Origin: Eledone cirrhosa
Taxonomy: Eukaryota
Assembly (NCBI GenBank): GCA_964016885.1
Contig: OZ024764.1
Coordinates: 14,384,001-14,448,000 of the forward strand
Length of the DNA stretch: 64,000 bases
Direction: 5' to 3'
Below are positions 4,901 to 62,535 of this stretch, in pieces. The translations under genes and the position numbers were made by a program. Each line of letters begins with the position of its first letter. Position 1 is the stretch's first letter. The notes under the pieces were generated by a model. The model did no database searches, was not told the origin of the DNA, and worked only from the letters and a program-made list of their open reading frames with translations.

Positions 4901-6462
4901 TACAGACACAGTGTATCTAGGACTACATTATCTAATGTGTCCTGTCTTATATACAGACACAGTCTATCTAGGACTACATTATCTAATGTGTCCTGTCTTA
5001 TATACAGACACAGTGTATCTAGGACTACATTGTCTAATGTCTTGTCTTACATACAGACACAGTCTACCTAGGACTACACTATCTAATGTGTCTTGTCTTA
5101 TATACAGACACAGTGTATCTAGGACTACATTATCTAATGTGTCCTGTCTTATATACAGACACAGTGTATCTAGGACTACATTATCTAATGTGTCCTGTCT
5201 TATATACAGACACAGTGTATCTAGGACTACATTATCTAATGTCCTGTCTTATATACAGACACAGTGTATCTAGGACTACATTATCTAATGTCCTGTCTTA
5301 TAGACGGACACAGTGTATCTAGGACTACATTATTTAATGTGTCCTGTCTTATATACAGACACAGTGTACCTAGGACTACATTATCTAATGTGTCTTGTAT
5401 ACAGACACAGTGTATCTAGGACTACATTATCTAATGTGTCCTGTCTTATATACAGACACAGTATATCTAGGACTACATTATCTAATGTGTCCTGTCTTAT
5501 ATACAGACACAGTGTACCTAGGACTACATTATCTAATGTGTCCTGTCTTATATACAGAGACAGTGTACCTAGGACTACATTATCTAATGTGTCCTGTCTT
5601 ATATACAGACACAGTGTATCTAGGACTACATTATCTAATGTGTCCTGTCTTATATACAGACACAGTGTACCTAGGACTACATTATCTAATGTGTCCTGTC
5701 TTATATACAGACACAGTGTACCTAGGACTACATTATCTAATGTGTCCTGTCTTATATACAGACACAGTGTACCTAGGACTACACTATCTAATGTGTCTTG
5801 TCTTATATACAGACACAGTGTATCTAGGACTACATTATCTAATGTGTCCTGTCTTATATACAGACACAGTGTACCTAGGACTACATTATCTAATGTGTCC
5901 TGTCTTATATACAGACACAGTATATCTTGGACTACATTATCTAATGTGTCCTGTCTTATATACAGACACAGTGTACCTAGGACTACATTATCTAATGTGT
6001 CCTGTCTTATATACAGACACAGTGTACCTAGGACTACATTATCTAATGTGTCCTGTCTTATATACAGACACAGTGTACCTAGGACTACACTATCTAATGT
6101 GTCTTGTCTTATATACAGACACAGTGTATCTAGGACTACATTATCTAATGTGTCCTGTCTTATATAGACACAGTGTACCTAGGACTACATTATCTAATGT
6201 GTCCTGTCTTATATACAGACACAGTATATCTTGGACTACATTATCTAATGTGTCCTGTCTTATATACAGACACAGTGTACCTAGGACTACATTATCTAAT
6301 GTGTCCTGTCTTATATACAGACACAGTGTATCTAGGACTACATTATCTAATGTGTCCTGTCTTATATACAGACACAGTGTACCTAGGACTACATTATCTA
6401 ATGTGTCCTGTCTTATATACAGACACAGTGTATCTAGGACTATATCATTTAATGTGTCCTTC
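1929..6462. repeat. 51-bp satellite array I (about 89 monomers)
   Basis: Monomer cctgtcttatatacagacacagtgtatctaggactacattatctaatgtgt; 17-aa periodic ORFs. Confidence 0.98.
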
Positions 6463-6682
6463 CTTGAGAGAGAGAGTAGGTGATTCAATGAATTATTGGT
6501 GGTAGCACCAAAACAAGCACTTGATGCTCGAGCAGAGTGTATTTAGTTTTTTATTGTGTTAGGAAGGGCATCCAGCTATAGAAAGCTTGCCAAATGAGGG
6601 GTTAGGATGATCTTTCAGTTTGTGCCAAAAGACATAGCTTCTCCTCTGCACTTGATAATTGTTTCTATGTTAGGCACAAGGC

Positions 6683-7110
6683 CATTTCATTTCATTTCAT
6701 TTGAGTTTGAGTCCATGCTCAGGCCAAGTCGAAGACTCCACCCTCAGAGTCTGGTGTGGTTGCCAGGTTGGATTCTCTGTTTAATTTTGACATGTGTAGG
6801 AGCGAGTTTGAGTCAGTTTGTGCTCGTTGTGTATATCCTGGGAGATGGGGTTCATCTCTAATGGTGCTTAAGTATCTATCCAGTTGCAATTTGAATGATT
6901 CCACACTGCATCCTGATAGATTTCTGACATGTACCGGAATGGAGTTGAATAGTTGTGCCCCTTGAACCAACAGACTTGACTCTCGCAGGGTTTTTGCTGC
7001 CTGGCCAGCCTTTTTGTTGATTGGTGGTAGCTGGCAGCGTCTTCTGTGGCGCAGCGAGTGGTAGGTTTTGATACCAAAGTTCGACACCTTTTGCTCTATC
7101 AAATGTATAT
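6683..7110 (-). mobile_element. 3' fragment of a CR1/L2-group non-LTR retrotransposon (ORF2 C-terminus plus (AAATG)n tail)
   Basis: Minus-strand peptide SLLVQGAQLFNSIPVHVRNLSGCSVESFKLQLDRYLSTIRDEP resembles CR1/L2-group ORF2 ends; (catt t)-type pentamer tail at 6683-6702. Confidence 0.7.
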
Positions 7111-7174
7111 AATTCGGTATCGCTCAAATCTTCTTTCTATTGAGTACATCTTCAAGGTTTTGAGTCTTTGCCAG

Positions 7175-7305
7175 TAAATACCCAGTACATTACTGGTACT
7201 TTATTTTATCGACCCCGTAAGGATGAAGGGCAAAGTTAACCTCAACGGGATTTGATCTCAGACCATAATGGGACGTAACTATGCTAGAAAGCATGGCGTC
7301 CAGAC
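7175..7305 (-). mobile_element. SINE family B copy (partial)
   Basis: Reverse complement matches the full copy at 48290-48478. Confidence 0.8.
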
Positions 7306-7389
7306 TGCGCGTAAGAGGAATACACACATCCCTGGCCTATCTGGGAGGTCAGTAACCTCGCTACAGTTCTAATTAGGTCTGTATAAATT

Positions 7390-7530
7390 AGCCCCTGGTA
7401 AAGGTGTTGGACTTAGATTCATAATATCGTAAGTTCAAATCCTCAACTGGGTAGCATGTTGTGTTCTCGAGCAAAACACTTAATTTCATTTTGCTCCAGT
7501 ATACTCAGCTGAAAATGAGTAGCAGCAATA
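7390..7530 (+). mobile_element. tRNA-derived CORE-like SINE (family A) head and core
   Basis: B box gttcaaatcc followed by CORE-like tgtgttctcgagcaaaacacttaatttc...ctcagctgaaaatgagta. Confidence 0.7.
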
Positions 7531-8727
7531 GCTGGGGGTTTAACCCTGCAATGGACTGGCGTCCTGTCCAGGGGGAAGTCTTTTATTCTTAGTCGCTTCA
7601 CACCATGAAACCAGGATAAGTACCAGCAATAGCTGGGGGTTTAACTTTGCAATGGACTGGCGTCCTGTCCAGGGGGAAGTCTTTTATTCTTAGTCGCTTC
7701 ACACCATGAAACCAGGATAAGTACCAGCAATAGCTGGGGGTTTAACCCTGCAATGGACTGGCGTCCTGTCCAGTGGGAAGTCTTTTATTCTTAGTCGCTT
7801 CACACCATGAAACCAGGATAAGTACCGGCAATAGCTGGGGGTTTAACTTTGCAATGGACTGGCGTCCTGTCCAGGGGGAAGTCTTTTATTCTTAGTCGCT
7901 TCACACCATGAAACCAGGATAAGTACCAGTAATAGCTGGGGGTTTAACTTTGCAATGGACTGGCGTCCTGTCCAGGGGGAAGTCTTTTATTCTTAGTCGC
8001 TTCACACCATGAAACCAGGATAAGTACCAGCAATAGCTGGGGGTTTAACTTTGCAATGGACTGGTGTCCTGTCCAGGGGGAAGTCTTTTATTCTTAGTCG
8101 CTTCACACCATGAAACCAGGATAAGTACCAGCAATAGCTGGGGGTTTAACCCTGCAATGGACTGGCGTCCTGTCCAGGAGGAAGTCTTTTATTCTTAGTC
8201 GCTTCACACCATGAAACCAGGATAAGTACCAGCAATAGCTGGGGGTTTAACCCTGCAATGGACTGGCGCCCTGTCCAGGGGAAGTCTTTTATTCTTAGTC
8301 GCTTCACACCATGAAACCAGGATAAGTACCAGTAATAGCTGGGGGTTTAACTTTGCAATGGACTGGCGTCCTGTCCAGGGGGAAGTCTTTTATTCTTAGT
8401 CGCTTCACACCATGAAACCAGGATAAGTACCAGCAATAGCTGGGGGTTTAACTTTGCAATGGACTGGCGTCCTGTCCAGGGGGCCGTCTTGTAGTCTGTC
8501 GCTTCACGCCATCAAACCGGGATAAGTACCAGCAATAGCTGGGGGTTTAACCCTGCAATGGACTGGTGTCCTGTCCAGGGGGAAGTCTTGTACTCTGTCG
8601 CTTCACGCCATGAAACCGGGATAAGTACCAGCAATAGCTGGGGGTTTAACCCTGCAATGGACTGGTGTCCTGTCCAGGGGGAAGTCTTGTACTCTGTCGC
8701 TTCACGCCATGAAACCGGGATAAGTAT
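7515..8727. repeat. 101-bp minisatellite (about 12 copies) continuing the 3' part of the adjacent SINE
   Basis: gctgggggtttaac recurs at 7531, 7632, 7733 and onward; the array starts directly after the SINE core. Confidence 0.92.
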
Positions 8728-8804
8728 TGGCCTGACAAGACTTCAGCTTACGGCAGACCCTAGAAACTCGTCCAAACCTTGCTAGCAGGGAAAGTGGACA
8801 GCAA

Positions 8805-8992
8805 ATAATAATAATAATTGTTTCTACTTTAGGCACAAGGCCAGCAATTACCCAGTGCATTACTGGTACTTTATTTTATCGACCCCGTAAGGATGAAAGG
8901 CAAAGTCAACCTCGGCAGGATTTGAACTCAGATCGTAAAGGGACGTAACTATGCTGGAAAGCATGGCGTCAAACCCTCTACCGATACTGCCA
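8805..8992 (-). mobile_element. SINE family B copy with (TTA)n tail
   Basis: Reverse complement matches 48300-48478 including A-box (tggcagtatcggtagag) and B-box (gttcaaatcc) regions. Confidence 0.85.
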
Positions 8993-9159
8993 TAATAATA
9001 ATGATGATGATGATGATGATGATGATATACATACCCCCCCCCCCCCTCCCCCATACCCCTCAGGTATTTAATAGGTGGAGATAGTTGATGGCTTTGTTTA
9101 CAGACACAAACCAGACCTGCTGAAGATTGAATATATGCAGGAAACTATGTATCTGTCTA

Positions 9160-9600
<441 letters not shown>

Positions 9601-9663
9601 CATACATACACACCCAGCTATTCAGTTGGTTGGTGTTTTTGCTGCGTAAAAATGTTATACATT

Positions 9664-10670
9664 CCACTACCACCACTACTACTACCACCACCACTACTAC
9701 TACCACCACCACTACTACCACCACCACTACTACTACCACCACCACTACTACTACCACCACCACTACTACCACTACCACCACCATCACTACTACCACCACC
9801 ACTACTACCACCACCACTACTACTACCACCACCACTACTACAACCAACACCATTACTACCACTACCATTACTAGCACCACCACTACCGCCACCACTACCA
9901 TCAACACTACTACAACCACTACTACAACTACCAATACTACTACAACCACCACCACCACTACTACCATTACTAGCACCACTACTATCATAACTAGCACCAT
10001 TACCACCACCACCACTACTACCATAACTAGCACCACTACCACCACACTACTACCATGAACACCACCACCACTACCATCAACTCTACTACAACCACTACTA
10101 CAACTACCAATACTACTACAACCACCACCACCACTACTACCATTACTAGCACCACTACTATCATAACTAGCACCATTACCACCACCACCACTACTACCAT
10201 AACTAGCACCACTACCACCACACTACTACCATGAACACCACCACCACTACCATCAACTCTACTACAACCACTACTACAACTACCAATACTACTACAACCA
10301 CCACCACCACTACTACCATTACTAGCACCACTACTATCATAACTAGCACCATTACCACCACCACCACTACTACCATAACTAGCACCACTACCACCACACT
10401 ACTACCATGAACACCACCACCACTACCATCAACTCTACTACAACCACTACTACAACTACCAATACTACTACAACCACCACCACCACTACTACCATTACTA
10501 GCACCACTACTATCATAACTAGCACCATTACCACCACCACTACTACCATTACTAGCACCATTACCACCACCACTACTACCATAACTAGCACCACTACCAC
10601 CACACTACTACCATGAACACCACCACCACTACCACCAACTCTACTACAACCATCACACCACCACCACCAG
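9664..10670. repeat. (ACC/ACT)n triplet repeat with 176-bp higher-order unit
   Basis: Near-identical ORF ends at 10036, 10212 and 10388 (period 176). Confidence 0.92.
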
Positions 10671-10762
10671 ACATAACAAGACAATGAACCAGTGTAAAGT
10701 ATGTAGCATATACCTTGCCAAATCTACAACAACAACATCAGCAACACTGAACGTAATATTAG

Positions 10763-10802
<40 letters not shown>

Positions 10803-10928
10803 GTAAGTGAGTGAAGGAGGGGGAGAAAGAGAACGAAAATGCCATGTTTAAAGCATTAGTTAGTAAACAAAAGATATTCCAGCTGTGACCATCCTGCCTA
10901 TTATTATTCAGACACAATCTGAATATTG

Positions 10929-13900
10929 TCACAGTATACCTAGGACTACATTATCTAATGTCTCCTGTCTTATATACAGACACAGTCCACCTAGGACTAC
11001 ATTATCTAATGTGTCCTGTCTTATATACAGACACAGTGTACCTAGGACTACATTATCTAATGTGTCCTGTCTTATCTACAGACACAGTGTATCTAGGACT
11101 ACATTATCTAATGTGTCCTGTCTTATATACAGACACAGTGTATCTAGGACTACATTATCTAATGTGTCCTGTCTTATATACAGACAGTGTATCTAGGACT
11201 ACATTATCTAATGTGTCCTGTCTTATATACAGACACAGTGTACCTAGGACTACATTATCTAATGTGTCCTGTCTTATATACAGACACAGTGTATCTAGGA
11301 CTACATTATCTAATGTGTCCTGTCTTATATACAGACACAGTGTATCTAGGACTACATTATCTAATGTGTCCTGTCTTATATACAGACACAGTGTCTCTAG
11401 GACTACATTATCTAATGTGTCCTGTCTTATATACAGACACAGTGTACCTAGGACTACATTATCTAATGTGTCCTGTCTTATATACAGACACAGTGTATCT
11501 AGGACTACATTATCTAATGTGTCCTGTCTTATATACAGACACAGTGTATCTAGGACTACATTATCTAATGTGTCCTGTCTTATATACAGACACAGTGTAC
11601 CTAGGACTACATTATCTAATGTGTCCTGTCTTATATACAGACACAGTGTACCTAGGACTACATTATCTAATGTGTCCTGTCTTATATACAGACACAGTGT
11701 ATCTAGGACTACATTATCTAATGTGTCCTGTCTTATATACAGACACAGTGTACCTAGGACTACATTATCTAATGTGTCCTGTCTTATATACAGACACAGT
11801 GTATCTAGGACTACATTATCTAATGTGTCCTGTCTTATATACAGACACAGTGTACCTAGGACTACATTATCTAATGTGTCCTGTCTTATATACAGACACA
11901 GTGTATCTAGGACTACATTATCTAATGTGTCCTGTCTTATATACAGACACAGTGTATCTAGGACTACATTATCTAATGTGTCCTGTCTTATATACAGACA
12001 CAGTGTATCTAGGACTACACTTATCTAATGTGTCCTGTCTTATATACAGACACAGTGTATCTAGGACTACATTATCTAATGTGTCCTGTCTTATATACAG
12101 ACACAGTGTATCTAGGACTACATTATCTAATGTGTCCTGTCTTATATACAGACACAGTCTATCTAGGACTACATTATCTAATGTGTCCTGTCTTATATAC
12201 AGACACAGTGTATCTAGGACTACATTATCTAATGTGTCCTGTCTTATATACAGACACAGTCTATCTAGGACTACATTATCTAATGTGTCCTGTCTTATAT
12301 ACAGACACAGTCTATCTAGGACTACATTATCTAATGTGTCCTGTCTTATATACAGACACAGTCTACCTAGGACTACATTATCTAATGTGTCCTGTCTTAT
12401 ATACAGACACAGTCTATCTAGGACTACATTATCTAATGTGTCCTGTCTTATATACAGACACAGTCTATCTAGGACTACATTATCTAATGTGTCCTGTCTT
12501 ATATACAGACACAGTCTATCTAGGACTACATTATCTAATGTGTCCTGTCTTATATACAGACACAGTCTATCTAGGACTACATTATCTAATGTGTCCTGTC
12601 TTATATACAGACACAGTCTACCTAGGACTACATTATCTAATGTGTCCTGTCTTATATACAGACACAGTCTATCTAGGACTACATTATCTAATGTGTCCTG
12701 TCTTATATACAGACACAGTCTACCTAGGACTACATTATCTAATGTGTCCTGTCTTATATACAGACACAGTGTATCTAGGACTACATATCTAATGTGTCCT
12801 GTCTTATATACAGACACAGTGTATCTAGGACTACATTATCTAATGTGTCCTGTCTTATATACAGACACAGTCTACCTAGGATTACATTATCTAATGTGTC
12901 CTGTCTTATATACAGACACAGTCTATCTAGGACTACATTATCTAATGTGTCCTGTCTTATATACAGACACAGTCTATCTAGGACTACATTATCTAATGTG
13001 TCCTGTCTTATATACAGACACAGTGTATCTAGGACTACAATATCTAATGTGTCCTGTCTTATATACAGACACAGTATATCTAGGACTACATTATCTAATG
13101 TGTCCTGTCTTATATACAGACACAGTCTACCTAGGACTACATTATCTAATGTGTCCTGTCTTATATACAGACACAGTGTATCTAGGACTACATTATCTAA
13201 TGTGTCCTGTCTTATATACAGACACAGTCTACCTAGGACTACATTATCTAATGTGTCCTGTCTTATATACAGACACAGTCTACCTAGGACTACACTATCT
13301 AATGTGTCCTGTCTTATATACAGACACAGTGTATCTAGGACTACATTATCTAATGTGTCTTGTCTTATATACAGACACAGTATATCTAGGACTACACTAT
13401 CTAATGTGTCCTGTCTTATATACAGACACAGTGTATCTAAGACTACATTATCTAATGTGTCCTGTCTTATATACAGACACAGTCTACCTAGGACTACATT
13501 ATCTAATGTGTCCTGTCTTATATACAGACACAGTCTACCTAGGACTACACTATCTAATGTGTCCTGTCTTATATACAGACACAGTGTATCTAGGACTACA
13601 TTATCTAATGTGTCCTGTCTTATATACAGACACAGTGTATCTAGGACTACATTATCTAATGTGTCCTGTCTTATATACAGACACAGTCTACCTAGGACTA
13701 CATTATCTAATGTGTCCTGTCTTATATACAGACACAGTCTACCTAGGACTACACTATCTAATGTGTCCTGTCTTATATACAGACACAGTGTATCTAGGAC
13801 TACATTATCTAATGTGTCCTGTCTTATATACAGACACAGTGTATCTAGGACTACATTATCTAATGTGTCCTGTCTTATATACAGACACAGTGTATCTAGG

Positions 13901-16900
13901 ACTACATTATCTAATGTGTCCTGTCTTATATACAGACACAGTGTATCTAGGACTACATTATCTAATGTGTCCTGTCTTATATACAGACACAGTCTACCTA
14001 GGACTACATTATCTAATGTGTCCTGTCTTATATACAGACACAGTGTATCTAGGACTACATTATCTAATGTGTCCTGTCTTATATACAGACACAGTATATC
14101 TAGGACTACAATATCTAATGTGTCCTGTCTTATATACAGACACAGTATATCTAGGACTACAATATCTAATGTGTCCTGTCTTATATACAGACACAGTGTA
14201 TCTAGGACTACATTATCTAATGTGTCCTGTCTTATATACAGACACAGTCTACCTAGGACTACATTATCTAATGTGTCCTGTCTTATATACAGACACAGTC
14301 TACCTAGGACTACACTATCTAATGTGTCCTGTCTTATATACAGACACAGTGTATCTAGGACTACATTATCTAATGTGTCCTGTCTTATATACAGACACAG
14401 TGTATCTAGGACTACATTATCTAATGTGTCCTGTCTTATATACAGACACAGTGTATCTAGGACTACATTATCTAATGTGTCCTGTCTTATATACAGACAC
14501 AGTGTATCTAGGACTACATTATCTAATGTGTCCTGTCTTATATACAGACACAGTCTACCTAGGACTACATTATCTAATGTGTCCTGTCTTATATACAGAC
14601 ACAGTGTATCTAGGACTACATTATCTAATGTGTCCTGTCTTATATACAGACACAGTCTACCTAGGACTACATTATCTAATGTGTCCTGTCTTATATACAG
14701 ACACAGTGTATCTAGGACTACATTATCTAATGTGTCCTGTCTTATATACAGACACAGTGTATCTAGGACTACATTATCTAATGTGTCCTGTCTTATATAC
14801 AGACACAGTGTATCTAGGACTACATTATCTAATGTGTCCTGTCTTATATACAGACACAGTGTATCTAGGACTACATTATCTAATGTGTCCTGTCTTATAT
14901 ACAGACACAGTGTACCTAGGACTACATTATCTAATGTGTCCTGTCTTATATACAGACACAGTGTATCTAGGACTACATTATCTAATGTGTCCTGTCTTAT
15001 ATACAGACACAGTGTATCTAGGACTACATTATCTAATGTGTCCTGTCTTATATACAGACACAGTGTATCTAGGACTACATTATCTAATGTGTCCTGTCTT
15101 ATATACAGACACAGTGTATCTAGGACTACATTATCTAATGTGTCCTGTCTTATATACAGACACAGTGTATCTAGGACTACATTATCTAATGTGTCCTGTC
15201 TTATATACAGACACAGTGTATCTAGGACTACATTATCTAATGTGTCCTGTCTTATATACAGACACAGTGTATCTAGGACTACATTATCTAATGTGTCCTG
15301 TCTTATATACAGACACAGTGTATCTAGGACTACATTATCTAATGTGTCCTGTCTTATATACAGACACAGTGTATCTAGGACTACATTATCTAATGTGTCC
15401 TGTCTTATATACAGACACAGTGTATCTAGGACTACATTATCTAATGTGTCCTGTCTTATATACAGACACAGTGTATCTAGGACTACATTATCTAATGTGT
15501 CCTGTCTTATATACAGACACAGTGTACCTAGGACTACATTATCTAATGTGTCCTGTCTTATATACAGACACAGTGTATCTAGGACTACATTATCTAATGT
15601 GTCCTGTCTTATATACAGACACAGTGTATCTAGGACTACATTATCTAATGTGTCCTGTCTTATATACAGACACAGTGTATCTAGGACTACATTATCTAAT
15701 GTGTCCTGTCTTATATACAGACACAGTGTATCTAGGACTACATTATCTAATGTGTCCTGTCTTATATACAGACACAGTGTATCTAGGACTACATTATCTA
15801 ATGTGTCCTGTCTTATATACAGACACAGTGTATCTAGGACTACATTATCTAATGTGTCCTGTCTTATATACAGACACAGTATATCTAGGACTACATTATC
15901 TAATGTGTCATGTCTTATATACAGACACAGTGTATCTAGGACTACATTATCTAATGTGTCCTGTCTTATATACAGACACAGTGTATCTAGGACTACACTA
16001 TCTAATGTGTCCTGTCTTATATACAGACACAGTCTACCTAGGACTACATTATCTAATGTGTCCTGTCTTATATACAGACACAGTCTATCTAGGACTACAT
16101 TGTCTAATGTGTCCTGTCTTATATACAGACACAGTATATCTAGGACTACATTATCTAATGTGTCCTGTCTTATATACAGACACAGTGTACCTAGGACTAC
16201 ATTATCTAATGTGTCCTGTCTTATATACAGACACAGTGTACCTAGGACTACATTATCTAATGTGTCCTGTCTTATATACAGACACAGTGTATCTAGGACT
16301 ACACTATCTAATGTGTCCTGTCTTATATACAGACACAGTCTACCTAGGACTACATTATCTAATGTGTCCTGTCTTATATACAGACACAGTCTATCTAGGA
16401 CTACATTGTCTAATGTGTCCTGTCTTATATACAGACACAGTGTATCTAGGACTACATTATCTAATGTGTCCTGTCTTATATACAGACACAGTATATCTAG
16501 GACTACATTATCTAATGTGTCCTGTCTTATATACAGACACAGTCTATCTAGGACTACATTATCTAATGTGTCCTGTCTTATATACAGACACAGTGTATCT
16601 AGGACTACATTATCTAATGTGTCCTGTCTTATATACAGACACAGTCTACCTAGGACTACATTATCTAATGTGTCCTGTCTTATATACAGACACAGTCTAT
16701 CTAGGACTACATTGTCTAATGTGTCCTGTCTTATATACAGACACAGTATATCTAGGACTACATTATCTAATGTGTCCTGTCTTATATACAGACACAGTCT
16801 ACCTAGGACTACATTATCTAATGTGTCCTGTCTTATATACAGACACAGTATATCTAGGACTACATTGTCTAATGTGTCCTGTCTTATATACAGACACAGT

Positions 16901-19900
16901 ATATCTAGGACTACATTATCTAATGTGTCCTGTCATATATACAGACACAGTATATCTAGGACTACATTATCTAATGTGTCCTGTCTTATATACAGACACA
17001 GTGTATCTAGGACTACATTATCTAATGTGTCCTGTCTTATATACAGACACAGTGTATCTAGGACTACATTATCTAATGTGTCCTGTCTTATATACAGACA
17101 CAGTCTATCTAGGACTACATTGTCTAATGTGTCCTGTCTTATATACAGACACAGTCTACCTAGGACTACATTATCTAATGTGTCCTGTCTTATATACAGA
17201 CACAGTGTATCTAGGACTACACTATCTAATGTGTCCTGTCTTATATACAGACACAGTGTACCTAGGACTACATTATCTAATGTGTCCTGTCTTATATACA
17301 GACACAGTGTATCTAGGACTACACTATCTAATGTGTCCTGTTTTATATACAGACACAGTTTACCTAGGACTACATTATCTAATGTGTCCTGTCTTATATA
17401 CAGACACAGTCTATCTAGGACTACATTGTCTAATGTGTCCTGTCTTATATACAGACACAGTCTACCTAGGACTACATTATCTAATGTGTCCTGTCTTATA
17501 TACAGACACAGTGTATCTAGGACTACATTATCTAATGTGTCCTGTCTTATATACAGACACAGTGTACCTAGGACTACATTATCTAATGTGTCCTGTCTTA
17601 TATACAGACACAGTGTATCTAGGACTACATTATCTAATGTGTCCTGTCTTATATACAGACACAGTGTATCTAGGACTACATTATCTAATGTGTCCTGTCT
17701 TATATACAGACACAGTGTATCTAGGACTACATTATCTAATGTGTCCTGTCTTATATACAGACACAGTGTATCTAGGACTACATTATCTAATGTGTCCTGT
17801 CTTATATACAGACACAGTGTATCTAGGACTACATTATCTAATGTGTCCTGTCTTATATACAGACACAGTGTATCTAGGACTACATTATCTAATGTGTCCT
17901 GTCTTATATACAGACACAGTATATCTAGGACTACATTATCTAATGTGTCCTGTCTTATATACAGACACAGTGTATCTAGGACTACATTATCTAATGTGTC
18001 CTGTCTTATATACAGACACAGTGTATCTAGGACTACACTATCTAATGTGTCCTGTCTTATATACAGACACAGTCTACCTAGGACTACATTATCTAATGTG
18101 TCCTGTCTTATATACAGACACAGTCTATCTAGGACTACATTGTCTAATGTGTCCTGTCTTATATACAGACACAGTATATCTAGGACTACATTATCTAATG
18201 TGTCCTGTCTTATATACAGACACAGTGTACCTAGGACTACATTATCTAATGTGTCCTGTCTTATATACAGACACAGTGTACCTAGGACTACATTATCTAA
18301 TGTGTCCTGTCTTATATACAGACACAGTGTATCTAGGACTACACTATCTAATGTGTCCTGTCTTATATACAGACACAGTCTACCTAGGACTACATTATCT
18401 AATGTGTCCTGTCTTATATACAGACACAGTCTATCTAGGACTACATTGTCTAATGTGTCCTGTCTTATATACAGACACAGTGTATCTAGGACTACATTAT
18501 CTAATGTGTCCTGTCTTATATACAGACACAGTATATCTAGGACTACATTATCTAATGTGTCCTGTCTTATATACAGACACAGTCTATCTAGGACTACATT
18601 ATCTAATGTGTCCTGTCTTATATACAGACACAGTGTATCTAGGACTACATTATCTAATGTGTCCTGTCTTATATACAGACACAGTCTACCTAGGACTACA
18701 TTATCTAATGTGTCCTGTCTTATATACAGACACAGTCTATCTAGGACTACATTGTCTAATGTGTCCTGTCTTATATACAGACACAGTATATCTAGGACTA
18801 CATTATCTAATGTGTCCTGTCTTATATACAGACACAGTCTACCTAGGACTACATTATCTAATGTGTCCTGTCTTATATACAGACACAGTATATCTAGGAC
18901 TACATTGTCTAATGTGTCCTGTCTTATATACAGACACAGTATATCTAGGACTACATTATCTAATGTGTCCTGTCATATATACAGACACAGTATATCTAGG
19001 ACTACATTATCTAATGTGTCCTGTCTTATATACAGACACAGTGTATCTAGGACTACATTATCTAATGTGTCCTGTCTTATATACAGACACAGTGTATCTA
19101 GGACTACATTATCTAATGTGTCCTGTCTTATATACAGACACAGTCTATCTAGGACTACATTGTCTAATGTGTCCTGTCTTATATACAGACACAGTCTACC
19201 TAGGACTACATTATCTAATGTGTCCTGTCTTATATACAGACACAGTGTATCTAGGACTACACTATCTAATGTGTCCTGTCTTATATACAGACACAGTGTA
19301 CCTAGGACTACATTATCTAATGTGTCCTGTCTTATATACAGACACAGTGTATCTAGGACTACACTATCTAATGTGTCCTGTTTTATATACAGACACAGTT
19401 TACCTAGGACTACATTATCTAATGTGTCCTGTCTTATATACAGACACAGTCTATCTAGGACTACATTGTCTGTGTCCTGTCTTATATACAGACACAGTCT
19501 ACCTAGGACTACATTATCTAATGTGTCCTGTCTTATATACAGACACAGTGTATCTAGGACTACACTATCTAATGTGTCCTGTCTTATATACAGACACAGT
19601 GTACCTAGGACTACATTATCTAATGTGTCCTGTCTTATATACAGACACAGTGTATCTAGGACTACATTATCTAATGTGTCCTGTCTTATATACAGACACA
19701 GTATATCTAGGACTACATTATCTAATGTGTCCTGTCTTATATACAGACACAGTGTATCTAGGACTACATTATCTAATGTGTCCTGTCTTATATACAGACA
19801 CAGTATATCTAGGACTACATTATCTAATGTGTCCTGTCTTATATACAGACACAGTGTATCTAGGACTACATTATCTAATGTGTCCTGTCTTATATACAGA

Positions 19901-20597
19901 CACAGTATATCTAGGACTACATTATCTAATGTGTCCTGTCATATATACAGACACAGTGTATCTAGGACTACACTATCTAATGTGTCCTGTCTTATATACA
20001 GACACAGTCTACCTAGGACTACATTATCTAATGTGTCCTGTCTTATATACAGACACAGTCTATCTAGGACTACATTATCTAATGTGTCCTGTCTTATATA
20101 CAGACACAGTGTACCTAGGACTACATTATCTAATGTGTCCTGTCTTATATACAGACACAGTGTACCTAGGACTACATTATCTAATGTGTCCTGTCTTATA
20201 TACAGACACAGTGTACCTAGGACTACATTATCTAATGTGTCCTGTCTTATATACAGACACAGTCTATCTAGGACTACATTATCTAATGTGTCCTGTCTTA
20301 TATACAGACACAGTTTACCTAGGACTACATTATCTAATGTGTCCTGTCTTATATACAGACACAGTGTACCTAGGACTACATTATCTAATGTGTCCTGTCT
20401 TATATACAGACACAGTCTACCTAGGACTACATTATCTAATGTGTCCTGTCTTATATACAGACACAGTGTACCTAGGACTACATTATCTAATGTGTCCTGT
20501 CTTATATACAGACACAGTGTACCTAGGACTACATTATCTAATGTGTCCTGTCTTATATACAGACACAGTGTACCTAGGACTACATTATCTAATGTCC
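10929..20597. repeat. 51-bp satellite array II (about 190 monomers), same orientation as array I
   Basis: Same monomer as 1929-6462. Confidence 0.98.
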
Positions 20598-22837: not shown

Positions 22838-22931
22838 AGAAGTTGTATTAAATTTGTTGGAATTCTGACAAACATAAATGTTTATAACTGATTTAGAGCA
22901 CTCAACAGTTACTGGAGTAAATATTCCATTT

Positions 22932-29179: not shown

Positions 29180-29385
29180 AGAAATGACTTCTACAGATCT
29201 AGAACTGTTTCACTTGTATGAAATCATCAGGACATTCCTGATGATTTCATATGAATGAAACAGTTCTAGTCCTGTAGAAGTCATTTCTATATATAATAAA
29301 TCTCTTTACTCTACCAACATTTTCGGTTGCTTTTTTAACTATGGTCACCTCCGGGGCATACATCCGAAATCCACCTACAATTAAG
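29180..29385. mobile_element. Fold-back element family H3 with hammerhead core boxes in both arms
   Basis: Arms about 29180-29232 / 29236-29288; CTGATGA 29238, GAAAC 29257. Confidence 0.65.
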
Positions 29386-30539: not shown

Positions 30540-30881
30540 CATCATCATCATCATTTCATTTTACGTCCACTTTTCCCTGCTTGCAAGGGTGGGACGGGAA
30601 CCGATTCTGGCTTGATTTCTACAGCTGGATGCCCTTCCTAACGCCAACCTCATTTACAGTGAGTGCTGGGTGCTTTTTTGCCGTGGCACCTCCACGACCA
30701 CTTTGCAGTGGAATGATATGGACCCCAGTCCTCTATCATCTCATTTCTACAGCTGAGTAAACTGGAGCAATGTGAAATAAAGTGCCTTGCTCAAAGAAAC
30801 AACACATCACCCGGTCTGAGAATTGAACTCACAACCTTTTGATTGCAAGCCCAATGCTCTAACCACTAAGCCATGTGCCTC
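30540..30881 (-). mobile_element. Full SINE family A
   Basis: Near-identical to 23236-23577. Confidence 0.85.
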
Positions 30882-36181: not shown

Positions 36182-36238
<57 letters not shown>

Positions 36239-36371
36239 GGAAGGGATATTTAATTTGTTGGAAATTCAACAAATATAAATGTTTATAACTGATTCAGAGC
36301 ACTCTACAGGTTTCTGGAGAAAATATTCAATACTATTAAAGGAATGGAAACTATATTTATAAAACCATATT

Positions 36372-36433
36372 TATTCTATTATATATATTTCAAGGGTACC
36401 AAAAACTTTGGTACGCTATCATCAGATAAAATA
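36372..36433 (-). ncRNA. Type I hammerhead ribozyme motif (mirror copy)
   Basis: Reverse complement of 36566-36627. Confidence 0.7.
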
Positions 36434-36565
36434 CAAAGAGTGTTTTATAAATTTTGACATAGCCAAGGAAAACATACCTTATCAGTTGAATATACGACCC
36501 AACAAAAATTAAACCGATAAGGTATGTTTTCCTTGGCTATGTCAAAATTTATAAAACACTCTTTG

Positions 36566-36627
36566 TATTTTATCTGATGATAGCGTACCAAAGTTTTTGG
36601 TACCCTTGAAATATATATAATAGAATA
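36566..36627 (+). ncRNA. Type I hammerhead ribozyme motif
   Basis: UAUUUUAU-CUGAUGA-uagcGUACCAAA guu UUUGGUACccuu-GAA-AUAUAUAU-A-AUAGAAUA; 8-bp stem I with one GU pair; predicted cut after 36619. Confidence 0.72.
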
Positions 36628-36667
36628 AATATGGTTTTATAAATATAGTTTCCATTTCTTTAATATC

Positions 36668-36732
<65 letters not shown>

Positions 36733-38079: not shown

Positions 38080-39543
38080 TGGAACAAGCTACCTCCATCA
38101 GTTGTTAGCTGTCGAGACACTGCATCCTTTAAAACCTCCATGGAACAAACTACCTCCATCAGTTGTTAGCTGTCGAGACACTGCATCCTTTAAAACCTCC
38201 ATGGAACAAACTACCTGCATCGGTTGTTAGCTGTCGAGACACTGCATCCTTTAAAACCTCCATGGAACAAACTACCTACATCAGTTATTAGCTGTCGAGA
38301 CACTGCATCCTTTAAAACCTCCATGGAACAAACTACCTGCATCGGTTGTTAGCTGTCGAGACACTGCATCCTTTAAAACCTCCATGGAACAAACTACCTA
38401 CATCGGTTGTTAGCTGTCGAGACACTGCATCCTTTAAAACCTCCATGGAACAAACTACCTACATCAGTTGTTAGCTGTCGAGACACTGCATCCTTTAAAA
38501 CCTCCATGGAACAAACTACCTACATCAGTTGTTAGCTGTCGAGACACTGCATCCTTTAAAACCTCCATGGAACAAACTACCTACATCAGTTGTTAGCTGT
38601 CGAGACACTGCATCCTTTAAAACCTCCATGGAACAAACTACCTACATCAGCTGTTAGCTGTCGAGACACTGCATCCTTTAAAACCTCCATGGAACAAACT
38701 ACCTACATCAGTTGTTAGCTGTCGAGACACTGCATCCTTTAAAACCTCCATGGAACAAACTACCTACATCGGTTGTTAGCTGTCGAGACACTGCATCCTT
38801 TAAAACCTCCATGGAACAAACTACCTGCATCAGTTGTTAGCTGTCGAGACACTGCATCCTTTAAAACCTCCATGGAACAAACTACCTGCATCAGTTGTTA
38901 GCTGTCGAGACACTGCATCCTTTAAAACCTCCATGGAACAAACTACCTACATCAGTTGTTAGCTGTCGAGACACTGCATCCTTTAAAACCTCCATGGAAC
39001 AAACTACCTGCATCAGTTGTTAGCTGTCGAGACACTGCATCCTTTAAAACCTCCATGGAACAAACTACCTGCATCAGTTGTTAGCTGTCGAGACACTGCA
39101 TCCTTTAAAACCTCCATGGAACAAACTACCTACATCAGTTGTTAGCTGTCGAGACACTGCATCCTTTAAAACCTCCATGGAACAAACTACCTGCATCAGT
39201 TGTTAGCTGTCGAGACACTGCATCCTTTAAAACCTCCATGGAACAAACTACCTCCATCGGTTGTTAGCTGTCGAGACACTGCATCCTTTAAAACCTCCAT
39301 GGAACAAACTACCTGCATCGGTTGTTAGCTGTCGAGACACTGCATCCTTTAAAACCTCCATGGAACAAACTCCCTGCATCAGTTGTTAGCTGTCGAGACA
39401 CTGCATCCTTTAAAACCTCCATGGAACAAACTACCTGCATCAGTTGTTAGCTGTCGAGACACTGCATCCTTTAAAACCTCCATGGAACAAACTACCTGCA
39501 TCAGTTGTTAGCTGTCGAGACACTGCATCCTTTAAAACCTCCA
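38080..39543. repeat. 61-bp minisatellite (about 24 copies)
   Basis: tggaacaaactacctgcatcagttgttagctgtcgagacactgcatcctttaaaacctcca; low-copy parent at 54620-54860. Confidence 0.95.
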
Positions 39544-40139
39544 TACTTCCTGAGATTCGCCAACACTACACCTAATGTTCCCGCTCCATACACACACACA
39601 CATGTATATCATTACTCATACACTGTTCACTTCCCTGACATTTGTATATTATTCTATGTACTATACATGCACCTTTGACGAGTTGTAGTGCACCTGAGCA
39701 CTGTACACAATAATTTCATTGTTATTATTATTATTTTATATATATATATATATATATACCCCGTTCAACCTATGAAAGCATGGAAAGGCGGATGTAAAAA
39801 CGATAATGATGAAGATCCCTAAAAATATAATTGTACTGTATTGTATGTCAAACCCTCTTCCCTATTTTCATTTATCTATCCAATGTCTGTGATTTGCATT
39901 CAGCCCTCGTAGAGATTGTTATGTAGTAGTAAAATGTTCTGACCCTGTCTCTCTCTTTCTCCCCCCCCCCACCTCTCCCCCCCCCCCCCTCTCTCTTCTC
40001 TATCCATCTGTCTACCTATCTCTCTCTCTCTCTTTGTCCTCATTGCTTGCAGTGGATCTTGAAATGTATAACAGGTATATATATATATCCATACATACAT
40101 CTTTACAAACAAACAAACATACATACATACATATGTGTA

Positions 40140-43029: not shown

Positions 43030-43086
43030 ACTTCAATCTGATCTCATAATAAATATTTGGTCGACGGGTTTATATATATATATTAT

Positions 43087-43353
43087 ACAATTAACAACAA
43101 AGAGCGCTTAGAACATAGGTATATCTTTAATTGCTAACAGTGTTTCGTCCACACTAGAAGTGGGACTCTTCAGAGCTTTATGCTCTGAAGAGTCCCACTT
43201 CTAGTGTGGACGAAACACTGTTAGCAATTAAAGATATACCTATGTTCTAATCGCTCTTTGTTGTTAATTGTTTTACGGCTCTGTCCTCTGACATTGAGCT
43301 AACCATATACTGCCTATTTGATAAGTGGAGTGTTACACACTCCCAATTCTCTC

Positions 43354-43357
<4 letters not shown>
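43087..43357. mobile_element. Fold-back element family H2 in (TA)n, 90-bp arms, hammerhead core in each arm
   Basis: Arms 43087-43176 / 43182-43271 (one mismatch seen), 5-nt spacer; right side extends to (TA)n at 43357. Confidence 0.75.
43176..43233 (+). ncRNA. Type I hammerhead ribozyme motif
   Basis: CUUUAUGCU-CUGAAGA-GUCC cac uucua gug u GGAC-GAA-ACA c UGU-U-AGCA au UAAAG; complete core, canonical G10.1-C11.1 pair, GUU site (cut after 43222). Confidence 0.82.
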
Positions 43358-43390
<33 letters not shown>

Positions 43391-43679
43391 TATATATACA
43401 ACCCTTATCGAGACATCTTCGGATTTTGGTCCTTGTATTTATTATTACTATATATATATATATATATATATATATTGGGCAAATTTTTTCTGCTCTGGAT
43501 GAAATGTCCGCTAATTAATAATATATATTATCATGGCTGATTAATGTATGTTTCTCTCTCTATCGCTTTATCTATATATATATATATATATTTTTCTTCT
43601 TTCAATCTGTTTCACCTTAGCTAACGAACCTCACCACTAATATATTACTTTCGCAATCTTATATTTTCGCTTCATATAT

Positions 43680-45834: not shown

Positions 45835-46648
45835 TCCACCAGTAAAGATACTATAAACATTTAGTCCACCAGTAAAGATACTATAAACATTTAGTACAAA
45901 ACAACACTATGACTACATCACATTAAATATTAAAGTCTTTACTGTAATACTGTAAATTTTCACAACAATCTGTCCACCAGTAAAGATACTATAAACATTC
46001 AGTACAAAACAACACTATGACTACATCACATTAAATATTAAAGTCTTTACTGTAATACTGTAAATTTCCACAACAATCTGTCTACCAGTAAAGATACTAT
46101 AAACATTTAGTACAAAACAACACTATGACTACATCACATTAAATATTAAAGTCTTTACTGTAATACTGTAAATTTCCACAACAATCTGTCTACCAGTAAA
46201 GATACTATAAACATTTAGTACAAAACAACACTATGACTACATCACATTAAATATTAAAGTCTTTACTGTAATACTGTAAATATTCACAACAATCTGTCCA
46301 CCAGTAAAGATACTATAAACATTTAGTACAAAACAACACTATGACTACATCACATTAAATATTAAAGTCTTTACTGTAATACTGTAAATATTCACAACAA
46401 TCTGTCCACCAGTAAAGATACTATAAACATTTAGTACAAAACAACACTATGACTACATCACATTAAATATTAAAGTCTTTACTGTAATACTGTAAATATT
46501 CACAACAATCTGTCTACCAGTAAAGATACTATAAACATTTAGTACAAAACAACACTATGACTACATCACATTAAATATTAAAGTCTTTACTGTAATACTG
46601 TAAATATTCACAACAATCTGTCCACCAGTAAAGATACTATAAACATTA
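45835..46648. repeat. 108-bp AT-rich minisatellite (about 7 copies)
   Basis: cagtaaagatactataaac at 46086, 46194 and onward; older diverged units at 45660-45835. Confidence 0.92.
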
Positions 46649-57832: not shown

Positions 57833-58919
57833 TTCACCCTTTAGTATTTACATTACTCTATATATACTATTGTATTTTCACAGTAAAGGCTTTACCTCAC
57901 ATAATATCTCACATACCATTTACATTTCTCTATATTTACTATTGTATTTTCACAGTAAAGGCTTTACCTCACATAATATCTCACATACCATTTACATTTC
58001 TCTATATTTACTATTGTATTTTCACAGTAAAGGCTTTACCTCACATAATATCTCGCATAACATTTACATTTCTCTATATTTACTATTGTATTTTCACAGT
58101 AAAGGCTTTACCTCACATAATATCTCACATAACATTTACATTACTCTATATATACTATTGTATTTTCACAGTAAAGGCTTTACCTCACATAATACCTCAC
58201 ATAACATTTACATTACTCTATATATACTATTGTATTGTCACAGTAAAGGCTTTACCTCACATAATATCTCACATAACATTTACATTACTCTATATATACT
58301 ATTGTATTTTCACAGTAAAGGCTTTACCTCACATAATATCTCACATAACATTTACATTACTCTATATATACTATTGTATTTTCACAGTAAAGGCTTTACC
58401 TCACATAATATCTCACATAACATTTACATTACTCTATATATACTATTGTATTGTCACAGTAAAGGCTTTATCTCACATAATATCTCACATAACATTTACA
58501 TTACTCTATATATACTATTGTATTTTCACAGTAAAGGCTTTACCTCACATAATACCTCACATAACATTTACATTACTCTATATATACTATTGTATTGTCA
58601 CAGTAAAGGCTTTACCTCACATAATATCTCACATAACATTTACATTACTCTATATATACTATTGTATTTTCACAGTAAAGGCTTTACCTCACATAATATC
58701 TCACATAACATTTACATTACTCTATATCTACTATTGTATTTTCACAGTAAAGGCTTTACTTTACATAATTATTCACACCGAATCTATGAAATTTTGATGA
58801 TATTTACTTTAAAAACAATACCTTGACATCAGTATGAGTGGCTAGATATGGTCAGTTTGAACAGAAAGAAGTGAGAGAATTTTGGTCAGATATGGCCGGT
58901 TTAAATGCTAAAGGGTTAA
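57833..58919. mobile_element. piggyBac-like MITE expanded by an internal 72-bp tandem array (about 57845-58770)
   Basis: ccctttagtattta start, aaatgctaaagggTTAA end; unit matches the 5' interior of 42804-43029. Confidence 0.8.
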
Positions 58920-61229: not shown

Positions 61230-62535
61230 TCAATGAATGTCTGATAATGTTGGCCATGTTTGATATGTTTCGTAATATTTGATGAATGTCTGATGATGTT
61301 GGTAATGTTTAGTTATGTCTGATAATGTTGGCCATGTTTGATAACGTTTTGTAATATTTGATGAATGTCTGATGATGTTGGTAATGTTTAGTTATGTCTG
61401 ATAATATTGGCCATGTTTGATAATGTTTTGTAATATTTGATGAATGTCTGATGATGTTGGTAATGTTTAGTTATGTCTGATAATGTTGGCCATGTTTGAT
61501 AACGTTTTGTAATATTTGATGAATGTCTGATGATGTTGGTAATGTTTAGTTATGTCTGATAATGTTGGCCATGTTTGATAACGTTTTGTAATATTTGATG
61601 AATGTCTGATGATGTTGGTAATGTTTAGTTATGTCTGATAATATTGGCCATGTTTGATAATGTTTCGTAATATTTGATGAATGTCTGATGATGTTGGTAA
61701 TGTTTAGTTATGTCTGATAATGTTGGCCATGTTTGATAACGTTTTGTAATATTTGATGAATCTCTGATGATGTTGGTAATGTTTAGTTATGTCTGATAAT
61801 GTTGGCCATGTTTGATAACGTTTTGTAATATTTGATGAATGTCTGATGATGTTGGTAATGTTTAGTTATGTCTGATAATATTGGCCATGTTTGATAATGT
61901 TTCGTAATATTTGATGAATGTCTGATGATGTTGGTAATGTTTAGTTATGTCTGATAATGTTGGCCATGTTTGATAACGTTTTGTAATATTTGATGAATGT
62001 CTGATGATGTTGGTAATGTTTAGTTATGTCTGATAATGTTGGCCATGTTTGATAATGTTTCGTAATATTTGATGAATGTCTGATGATGTTGGTAATGTTT
62101 AGTTATGTCTGATAATGTTGGCCATGTTTGATAACGTTTTGTAATATTTGATGAATGTCTGATGATGTTGGTAATGTTTAGTTATGTCTGATAATATTGG
62201 CCATGTTTGATAATGTTTCGTAATATTTGATGAATGTCTGATGATGTTGGTAATGTTTAGTTATGTCTGATGTTGGTCATGTTTGATAATGTTTTGTAAT
62301 ATTTGATGAATGTCTGATGATGTTGGTAATGTTTAGTTATGTCTGATAATATTGGCCATGTTTGATAATGTTTCGTAATATTTGATGAATGTCTGATGAT
62401 GTTGGTAATGTTTAGTTATGTCTGATAATGTTGGCCATGTTTGATAATGTTTGGTAATATTTGATGAATGTCTGATGATGTTGGTAATGTTTAGTTATGT
62501 CTGATGTTGGTCATGTTTGATAATGTTTTGTAATA
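61230..62535. repeat. 79-bp minisatellite (about 16 copies) built from about 20-nt subrepeats
   Basis: gtaatatttg at 61351, 61430 and onward; subunits atgtctgatRatgttgg. Confidence 0.93.

What the first reader, a model, noticed from the sequence alone, without database searches (positions are those of the whole stretch)
43087..43357. Canonical hammerhead at the apex of a 90-bp near-perfect hairpin
The plus strand 43176-43233 has a complete core (CUGAAGA, GUCC/GGAC stem II, GAAA, ACA/UGU stem III with a 1-nt loop, GUU site) and a bulged stem I (UGCU/AGCA plus CUUUA/UAAAG). The inversion breakpoint falls inside the 5' strand of stem I, so the mirror copy keeps only 3 bp. A 1-nt loop III is sterically poor, which suggests dimeric cleavage as described for minimal PLE hammerheads. 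A read-through transcript would instead form the long duplex and mask the ribozyme (inference).
Basis: partly seen in the sequence, partly recalled or inferred. Interest (0 to 1): 0.75.

Follow-up and report, generated by a model that had tools for sequence, protein, structure and literature searches.

The report
Head-to-head stub of Penelope-like retrotransposon
The hairpin and its self-cutting RNA motif are real but are an ordinary, very short leftover of a known kind of jumping gene (a Hydra-type Penelope-like element), likely made by copying the same RNA twice from two fixed start points, each of which lies just before a small conserved RNA hairpin that may be the signal that positions the copying enzyme.

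Summary
Observation confirmed: 89 of 90 bp pair around a 5-nt loop, and a complete type I hammerhead core lies at 43176-43233 (+), with the cut predicted after 43222. It is the 3' terminal repeat (pLTR) of a young Penelope-like family (at least 289 exact matches to a 24-mer). Its long copies encode RT plus a C-terminal GIY-YIG nuclease with Hydra-clade motifs. The apex is unique in the genome, so the 'ribozyme at the apex' is a one-off insertion by-product, not a conserved switch. Head-to-head PLE copies, a one-sided tail and dimer-type hammerheads are all published. Beyond print as far as my searches reached: 36 of 38 head-to-head pairs join one arm ending at site 1 with one ending at site 2, about 90 nt further on. 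Either arm can be the longer, which argues for two cDNAs rather than fold-back. Each site lies a few bases before a bulged hairpin (GCUC-stem-UU-GAGC), and a second Hydra family repeats this layout. This scan noted the twin hairpins before on other DNA (e1-8673755, e1-9191373). Evidence that the ribozyme cuts in vivo is inconclusive, and this copy came from uncut RNA.

The parts
43071..43086 (.). Left part of the (TA)n target site; the last 2 bases are shared with the inverted arm (microhomology)
   Evidence: Sequence; the blastn match of the arm extends to 43085
43087..43176 (-). Short ('S') arm: inverted, 5'-truncated pLTR copy whose 3' end is at site 1 (+89 from hammerhead C3) and whose 5' end is at -3
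   Evidence: same end as 69 of 148 arms
43133..43176 (-). Mirror hammerhead: complete core from 43173 down, stem I cut to 3 bp
   Evidence: (14.9 bits)
43176..43176 (.). Junction of the two arms, 1-bp overlap; hairpin loop 43177-43181
   Evidence: apex found at 1 locus only
43176..43363 (+). Long ('L') arm: 5'-truncated pLTR copy from -9 to site 2; 3' end 43356-43363, blurred by TA microhomology; 2 substitutions in the first 176 nt against full-length copy L062
43176..43233 (+). Type I hammerhead motif; core 43185-43222; predicted cut after 43222; 7-nt self-complementary helix III (43215-43221)
43274..43356 (+). PLE tail: the stretch between site 1 and site 2, present on the long arm only
   Evidence: continues into the ORF in 7 read-through copies
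43277..43300 (+). Bulged hairpin 1 (GGCUC / 4-bp inner stem / UU bulge / GAGCU), 3-4 nt after site 1; its twin follows site 2 in full-length copies and is not copied here
43357..43398 (.). Right part of the (TA)n target site

Best explanation
This is a young, heavily 5'-truncated, head-to-head insertion of a Hydra-clade Penelope-like retrotransposon in a (TA)n tract, and the hairpin likely arose because both cut target strands primed reverse transcription on the element's RNA, one at site 1 and one at site 2 about 90 nt downstream, after which the two short cDNAs were joined at their 3' ends. Shown: family membership, the two fixed 3' ends, the one-short-one-long pairing, scattered 5' ends, and the bulged hairpin after each site. 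Inferred: a dimeric RT-nuclease loads on one RNA at the two hairpins, nicks both strands of AT-rich DNA and extends both. In this copy both cDNAs stopped early (175-188 and about 90 nt), within 6 nt of each other, which puts the hammerhead's 5' edge at the apex by accident. The hammerhead is the family's ordinary pLTR ribozyme, predicted to need a dimer or protein help. Here it was copied from uncut RNA and is probably inert: there is no upstream element sequence, and any read-through RNA would form the 90-bp duplex.
For: Family: 40 best hits 98-99% identical; 203 and 289 exact matches to a 32-mer and a 24-mer, controls 0. [quoted passage not shown] Motifs RWR, DKT, CxCx5C, one Cys between GIY and YIG, CxxC, CxH and (TA)n targets match the Hydra definition. 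Ends: of 148 arms, 69 end at site 1, 71 at site 2, 7 read into the ORF and 1 ends elsewhere. 36 of 38 head-to-head pairs are S+L (binomial p 5.5e-10 for 36 of 37 two-class pairs). S reaches further 5' in 18, L in 17, and only the window is within 20 nt. A second Hydra family (49% aa identity in the RT) repeats this: of 34 arms, 20 end within 10 nt of hairpin 1 and 12 within 12 nt of hairpin 2; 8 of 9 pairs are S+L; its hairpin 1 carries a G-C to A-U change. In vitro, an anole PLE protein nicks and extends both strands, starts RT at two internal sites that bound the tail, uses uncleaved RNA and is modelled as a dimer (PMC11167929, main text read).
Against: The window is the one symmetric case: two independent stops within 6 nt have about 0.8% chance from the pair table, and its 5-nt loop with a 1-bp overlap is what a cDNA snap-back would leave. 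Arm lengths are correlated (rho 0.48, p 0.003), so the two stops are not fully independent. Arm lengths are locus distances through low-complexity repeats. The arm set is a sample (first-listed places, mostly contigs 1-4) and holds a few duplicated loci. No clade tree was built. The tail is 83-90 nt, not the published 30-40 nt. A role for the hairpins is untested, and TA microhomology blurs the start points by several bases.
Confidence: 0.8

Rival explanations
1. Fold-back at this locus: one cDNA from site 2 stopped at -9, snapped back on a 1-bp match over a 5-nt loop, copied itself, and was cut or joined to the target at site 1 (self-priming, as proposed for palindromic PLE junctions).
For: The arms end 6 nt apart with a stable 5-nt loop. 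Palindromic junctions and self-priming are discussed for rotifer Penelope (PMC3846280, passages). L071 also looks centred on one point.
Against: It cannot be the family's general route: in 18 of 36 S+L pairs the short arm reaches further 5' than the long arm, by up to kilobases, including tiny ones (S -38 with L +47; S -9 with L +28). The window's S end is the same as in those pairs.
Confidence: 0.12
2. The junction marks a real boundary of the RNA (transcription start, splice acceptor or RT stop) at the 5' edge of hammerhead stem I, so both cDNAs ran off there.
For: 4 arm ends fall in -10..+3, two of them this locus. In D. virilis Penelope an intron ends at the 5' end of helix I (PMC4209133). 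An earlier scan note reports a fixed stop inside the ribozyme for another family of this genome (e1-9525717).
Against: No second locus has its apex within the same 30-nt range. Most arms read through this point. Other short doublets stop elsewhere.
Confidence: 0.05
3. A selected RNA switch: the hairpin masks a dimer-dependent hammerhead in read-through transcripts.
For: Masking is predicted: stem I and II probability is 0.0 in the full hairpin against 0.81-0.98 in the isolated 58-mer.
Against: Single locus. It is young (1 mismatch between arms) and has drifted like any copy. Stem I is also unformed in the long arm alone (0.0) and in the family context (0.002). There is no sense-strand partner for a dimer.
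Confidence: 0.02
4. A member of a self-propagating fold-back element (MITE-like) or a retrozyme.
For: Short, non-coding, terminal inverted repeats, carries a hammerhead.
Against: Each doublet has its own junction. The termini are asymmetric. There are no tandem hammerhead repeats here. The sequence is the end of a coding PLE.
Confidence: 0.01

Closest known systems
Hydra clade of C-terminal EN+ Penelope-like elements (Craig et al. 2021, PMC8557442; passages, section 11 and supplement parts 2, 52, 53 plus two supplement searches seen)
   Same: RW[KR], DKT, CxCx5C linker, no CCHH, CxxC and CxH motifs, (TA)n targets, type I hammerhead with short palindromic helix III. Penelope-13_HM is annotated with a 5'-truncated inverted copy and a hammerhead on both strands.
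   Different: A family not among the six new consensi read; its hammerhead differs from Hydra-1_Obim. Unit 5.2-5.9 kb against 'generally <3 kb'. Helix III is 7 nt against 9-10 nt in the listed Hydra motifs. The paper passages seen do not describe the S+L rule or the twin hairpins.
EN+ PLE insertions with inverted pLTR and one-sided tail (Adineta Pen2a, PMC3846280, passages; PMC8557442 Fig. 2 legend)
   Same: Inverted 5'-truncated copy at the 5' end, extension on one end only, microhomology joins.
   Different: Tail 83-90 nt, not 30-40 nt. Here both arms are so short that the whole insertion is one hairpin. Self-priming, the published reading, does not fit half of the pairs.
Poseidon_Ac internal RT initiation (Frangieh et al. 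2024, PMC11167929; parts 1-3 of 4 of the main text; supplement search found no text, figures not seen)
   Same: Two internal start sites bounding the tail, AT-rich targets, both strands extended, hammerhead cleavage not needed, binding region 3' of the start sites.
   Different: Different clade. There, initiation is in an AC-rich stem-loop inside the ORF. Here both sites are upstream of the ORF and each is followed by its own copy of one hairpin.
Minimal PLE hammerheads (Cervera and De la Pena 2014, PMC4209133; parts 1-2 of 4 read)
   Same: Long helix II, G10.1-C11.1, palindromic helix III, solo motifs from truncated PLEs, and pairs 100-700 bp apart on opposite strands.
   Different: No unpaired base between positions 9 and 10.1. 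Stem I can extend to 9 bp with a 2-nt bulge that is kept, in a shifted form, in a second subfamily.

Membership tests
EN+ Penelope-like element | Single ORF with RT and C-terminal GIY-YIG nuclease | tested here: met
   In family copies L062, L063, L064, L090, L091, L340, by motif. All 6 carry stops or frameshifts. Pfam gave no RT or GIY-YIG hit for 3 of 3 pieces; the homolog profile hits a retron RT at E 0.0023. The window copy itself has no ORF.
EN+ Penelope-like element | Partial tandem structure forming pLTRs | tested here: met
   Two same-strand hammerheads 5.2-5.9 kb apart flank the ORF in L062, L063, L064, L090, L091
EN+ Penelope-like element | Inverted 5'-truncated copy and one-sided tail | tested here: met
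   36 of 38 pairs are S+L; tail 83-90 nt, longer than the published 30-40
EN+ Penelope-like element | Target-site duplication | tested here: inconclusive
   Both flanks are (TA)n; no duplication can be read
Hydra clade | RWK, DKT, CxCx5C linker, CxxC and CxH motifs; CCHH absent | tested here: met
   RWR (R for K), DKT, CNCRRASGC, CNLC, CPH, one Cys between GIY and YIG
Hydra clade | Insertion into (TA)n | tested here: met
   TA-type repeats follow nearly all of the 141 terminating arms listed
Hydra clade | Placement in the clade by RT phylogeny | not tested
   No named reference proteins were held as sequences; compared by eye with the published alignment only
Type I hammerhead ribozyme | Invariant core (C3 U4 G5 A6 N7 G8 A9, G12 A13 A14 A15.1, U16.1, H17) and three helices | tested here: met
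   core kept across three subfamilies. Position numbering is recalled standard knowledge.
Type I hammerhead ribozyme | Rfam Hammerhead_1 gathering score | tested here: not met
   18.4 of 34 bits; this lowers 'Rfam family member', not 'works like a hammerhead'
Type I hammerhead ribozyme | Mg-dependent self-cleavage, as monomer or dimer | not testable with these tools
   Helix III self-duplex is only -1.6 kcal/mol with a C-C mismatch; the genomic trace of cutting is inconclusive
Non-LTR retrozyme | Tandem non-coding repeats, each with a hammerhead | tested here: not met
   No tandem array at the locus; the family is coding. Definition from bioRxiv 10.64898/2026.07.22.740005, part 1 of 5 read
MITE / fold-back DNA element | One hairpin structure shared by many copies, symmetric termini | tested here: not met
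   Apex at 1 locus; asymmetric termini

The most novel reading that the evidence does not exclude
Hydra-clade PLEs carry two copies of a bulged RNA hairpin (RCUC-inner stem-2-nt bulge-GAGY) that dock the two subunits of a dimeric RT-nuclease on one RNA. Each subunit starts at a fixed point just 5' of its hairpin on one strand of the cut target, which would explain the tail, the inverted pLTR and the strict one-short-one-long rule in a single mechanism. A minority of templates may be hammerhead-cut in vivo, leaving the smallest doublets that stop at +37..+42.
Probability: 0.5. Interest if true: 0.68.

Novelty: new member of a known kind. Interest (0 to 1): 0.36.

Why it matters
As framed (a ribozyme masked by a hairpin) it does not matter: such stubs are common, and a second one lies 7 kb away in this window. 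The value is in the family. How PLEs, the sister group of telomerase, make inverted repeats and tails is an open question (PMC8557442, PMC11167929). The S+L rule and the twin hairpins give an exact cis-element to mutate. The second family has many open reading frames of about 745 aa, so an in vitro test is within reach.

Tried and rejected
Rfam at gathering: no hammerhead; the MIR169_2 hits at 36447-36552 are another head-to-head doublet. Pfam: no RT or GIY-YIG hit. 3' ends at the hammerhead cut: 1 exact match genome-wide plus a duplicate with a mismatch, so no pile-up. 5' ends at the cut: the five distinct doublets with a 10-70 nt gap all have gaps of 14-22 nt, none lie at 23-79, and four lie at 80-128 (one more at about +46/+46). 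Six insertion events end at +37..+42. Against cutting: 0 arms start at +38 after a purine, two events join at an AATT palindrome, three subfamily-B ends run 3-7 nt past the cut, and the control position +27 gave 9 hits, 8 of them point mutants. Left as inconclusive. Twin-hairpin pattern in further families: 24 hits against 1 control, but 0 of 24 had a hammerhead upstream by my descriptor and only 1 had a distant tblastn hit, so they are not counted. My first hammerhead scan of the 30 motif loci found 0 of 30 because helix II was capped at 40 nt; the wider scan found 7 of 30 full cores and 10 of 30 helix III halves against 0.53 expected. Metagenome scans for Hydra loci of other animals found none. 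Lunse et al. (dimer cleavage) was not held and is cited only through the review PMC6765202. Supplementary figures of PMC11167929 and bioRxiv supplements were not seen and could bear on the novelty of the hairpins. No RT tree, structure prediction or covariance model was made.

Full report
1. Observation. The hairpin is real: arms 43087-43176 and 43182-43271 pair at 89 of 90 positions around a 5-nt loop; z -25.6 against 200 shuffles. The + strand holds a full type I hammerhead at 43176-43233: core from 43185, 8-bp bulged stem II, 7-nt helix III, U17 at 43222, and a 9-bp stem I with a 2-nt bulge. Rfam scores it below gathering (18.4 of 34 bits; mirror 14.9). Stem I forms in the isolated 58-mer (p 0.81-0.93) but not in the long arm alone (0.0), the whole hairpin (0.0) or a family copy's context (0.002). 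Positions below are counted from C3 = 0 (43185); the cut lies between +37 and +38.

2. What it is. The right arm belongs to a young repeat family in a 3.0-Gb genome: 1234 candidates, the 40 scored at 98-99%; 203 and 289 exact matches to two probes, controls 0. Long copies read pLTR - ORF - long 3'UTR - pLTR, with hammerheads 5.2-5.9 kb apart. [quoted passage not shown] Its RWR, DKT, CxCx5C, CxxC and CxH motifs, and the lack of CCHH, are the features given for the Hydra clade (PMC8557442 section 11), which also targets (TA)n. By eye it follows the published Hydra alignment; no tree was built, and Pfam found no RT or nuclease domain. All six long copies checked are broken. Three subfamilies keep the hammerhead core. 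They differ in loop II, loop III, N7, N17 and a bulge shift that keeps 9 bp in stem I. The exact apex, or any apex within a 30-nt range around it, occurs at this locus only.

3. Anatomy of insertions. Of 148 arms found in the loci fetched (a sample, mostly contigs 1-4, with a few duplicated loci; arms ending before +74 are excluded by the anchor), 69 end at site 1 (+82..+90), 71 at site 2 (+169..+184), 7 read into the ORF and 1 ends at +105. Of 38 head-to-head pairs, 36 join a site-1 arm (S) to a site-2 arm (L); one is L+L and one is S+other. S reaches further upstream in 18, L in 17; only the window is within 20 nt (S -3, L -9; 1-bp overlap). Large cases were checked against a real long copy (for example S -2564 with L -440, and S -1992 with L -221). 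A fold-back of one cDNA cannot give a short arm with sequence the long arm lacks, so two RNA-templated cDNAs are needed (inference). Two freely chosen RNAs should give S+S and L+L about half the time, so the strict S+L rule points to two enzymes placed at two sites of one RNA (inference). This fits the in vitro anole PLE, which extends both strands, starts at two internal sites bounding the tail, uses uncleaved RNA and is modelled as a dimer (PMC11167929). Against it: the window's symmetry has about 0.8% chance under independent stops, and arm lengths are correlated (rho 0.48), so a snap-back at this one locus is not excluded.

4. Twin hairpins. In read-through copies each site is followed within a few bases by GGCUC, an inner stem, a UU bulge and GAGCU (hairpin starts +92 and +184). 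The window keeps hairpin 1 at 43277-43300. Subfamily changes fall in its loop and bulge. A second Hydra family (49% identity in the RT; 25,214 exact matches to a 36-mer; many open frames of about 745 aa) has the same layout with 90-nt spacing. Of its 34 arms, 20 end within 10 nt of hairpin 1, 12 within 12 nt of hairpin 2 and 2 elsewhere; 8 of 9 pairs are S+L; its hairpin 1 has A-U where family A has G-C. A motif pattern that excludes family A gave 388 matches against 8 for the reversed control. Among the first 30, 22 have an inner stem of 2 bp or more (shuffled mean 2.4, maximum 8), and 10 have a hammerhead helix III 28-40 nt upstream (0.53 expected). By eye, the motif is in the tail or 5' start of 4 of the 6 new published Hydra consensi: Hydra-2_Amil, Hydra-1_Ajap twice, Hydra-2_Ajap, and Hydra-1_Crog (imperfect). 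It was not seen in Hydra-1_Obim, and Hydra-1_Amil lacks the region. A search for twin hairpins in further families gave 24 hits against 1 control, but none could be tied to a hammerhead. Four literature searches listed no paper whose title or abstract start describes this hairpin or the S+L rule; supplementary figures of PMC11167929 were not seen. The scan's earlier notes report the twin hairpins in this genome (e1-8673755) and a tail hairpin in another (e1-9191373). I saw them, after my own; they are not independent support.

5. Does the ribozyme cut in vivo? This copy ran past the cut site on both arms, so its template was uncut. Family-wide the trace is mixed. Five distinct doublets with a 10-70 nt gap all have gaps of 14-22 nt, none fall at 23-79, and four fall at 80-128. 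Six events end at +37..+42, four of them whole doublets of one 40-match subfamily. But no arm starts at +38 after a purine, two doublets join at an AATT palindrome, three subfamily-B ends extend 3-7 nt past the cut, and only one exact 3' end sits at the cut. Suggestive, not shown. The helix III self-duplex is weak (-1.6 kcal/mol). That fits the published low, dimer- or protein-dependent activity of PLE hammerheads (PMC4209133; PMC6765202; PMC11167929). The mirror copy is on the other strand and cannot be the dimer partner.

6. Comparison with what is known. Inverted 5'-truncated copies with a one-sided tail are standard for EN+ PLEs. Opposite-strand hammerhead pairs 100-700 bp apart were reported in 2014. 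A Hydra consensus with an attached inverted copy and hammerheads on both strands is in the 2021 supplement. It works like, and by motifs is, a Hydra-clade PLE stub; it is not a retrozyme or a fold-back DNA element.

7. Verdict. Real, ordinary in kind: a new member of a known kind, interest 0.36. What deserves follow-up is the family-level S+L rule and the twin hairpins (probability about 0.5 that they are the RT-positioning signal; interest 0.68 if true).

Noticed in passing
window 36233-36672: A second head-to-head doublet in (TA)n, with hammerhead cores at 36574 (+) and 36425 (-) and about 90 extra nt on one side; 77% alike to the second Hydra family. Its apex gives the false Rfam MIR169_2 hits.
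   Followed up: partly
window 9120 (+), 23140 (-), 26618 (+), 28410 (+), 29230 (-) / 29238 (+): More hammerhead-like core patterns; the pair at 29230/29238 is head-to-head, and 23140 (-) has a bulged-hairpin motif about 220 nt downstream at 22918.
   Followed up: no
G000:C3:35525605-35530788 (L231) and the other loci: A very abundant second Hydra family with many uninterrupted frames of about 745 aa; probably still active and the best material for an in vitro test.
   Followed up: partly
L184, L188, L191, L198, L200: An older family whose hammerhead has a 50-60 nt insertion in helix II, followed by the same bulged hairpin.
   Followed up: partly
L212-L216, G000:C2:169702765-169703564: A 183-bp tandem array whose unit carries the bulged hairpin but no hammerhead by my descriptor.
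   Followed up: no
L071, G000:C1:211750372 (duplicate near C1:212.22 Mb): An arm whose 3' end lies at the hammerhead cut site, in a pair that looks centred on one point.
   Followed up: partly
L062:2727-4643: An asparagine-rich stretch between the RT and the nuclease; N-rich inserts were described for rotifer Penelope.
   Followed up: no
window 1931-20595, 38080-39544, 45864-46647, 57846-58777, 61237-62535: Large minisatellite arrays (51, 61, 108, 72 and 79 bp units) and a tRNA-like match at 30816-30873.
   Followed up: no
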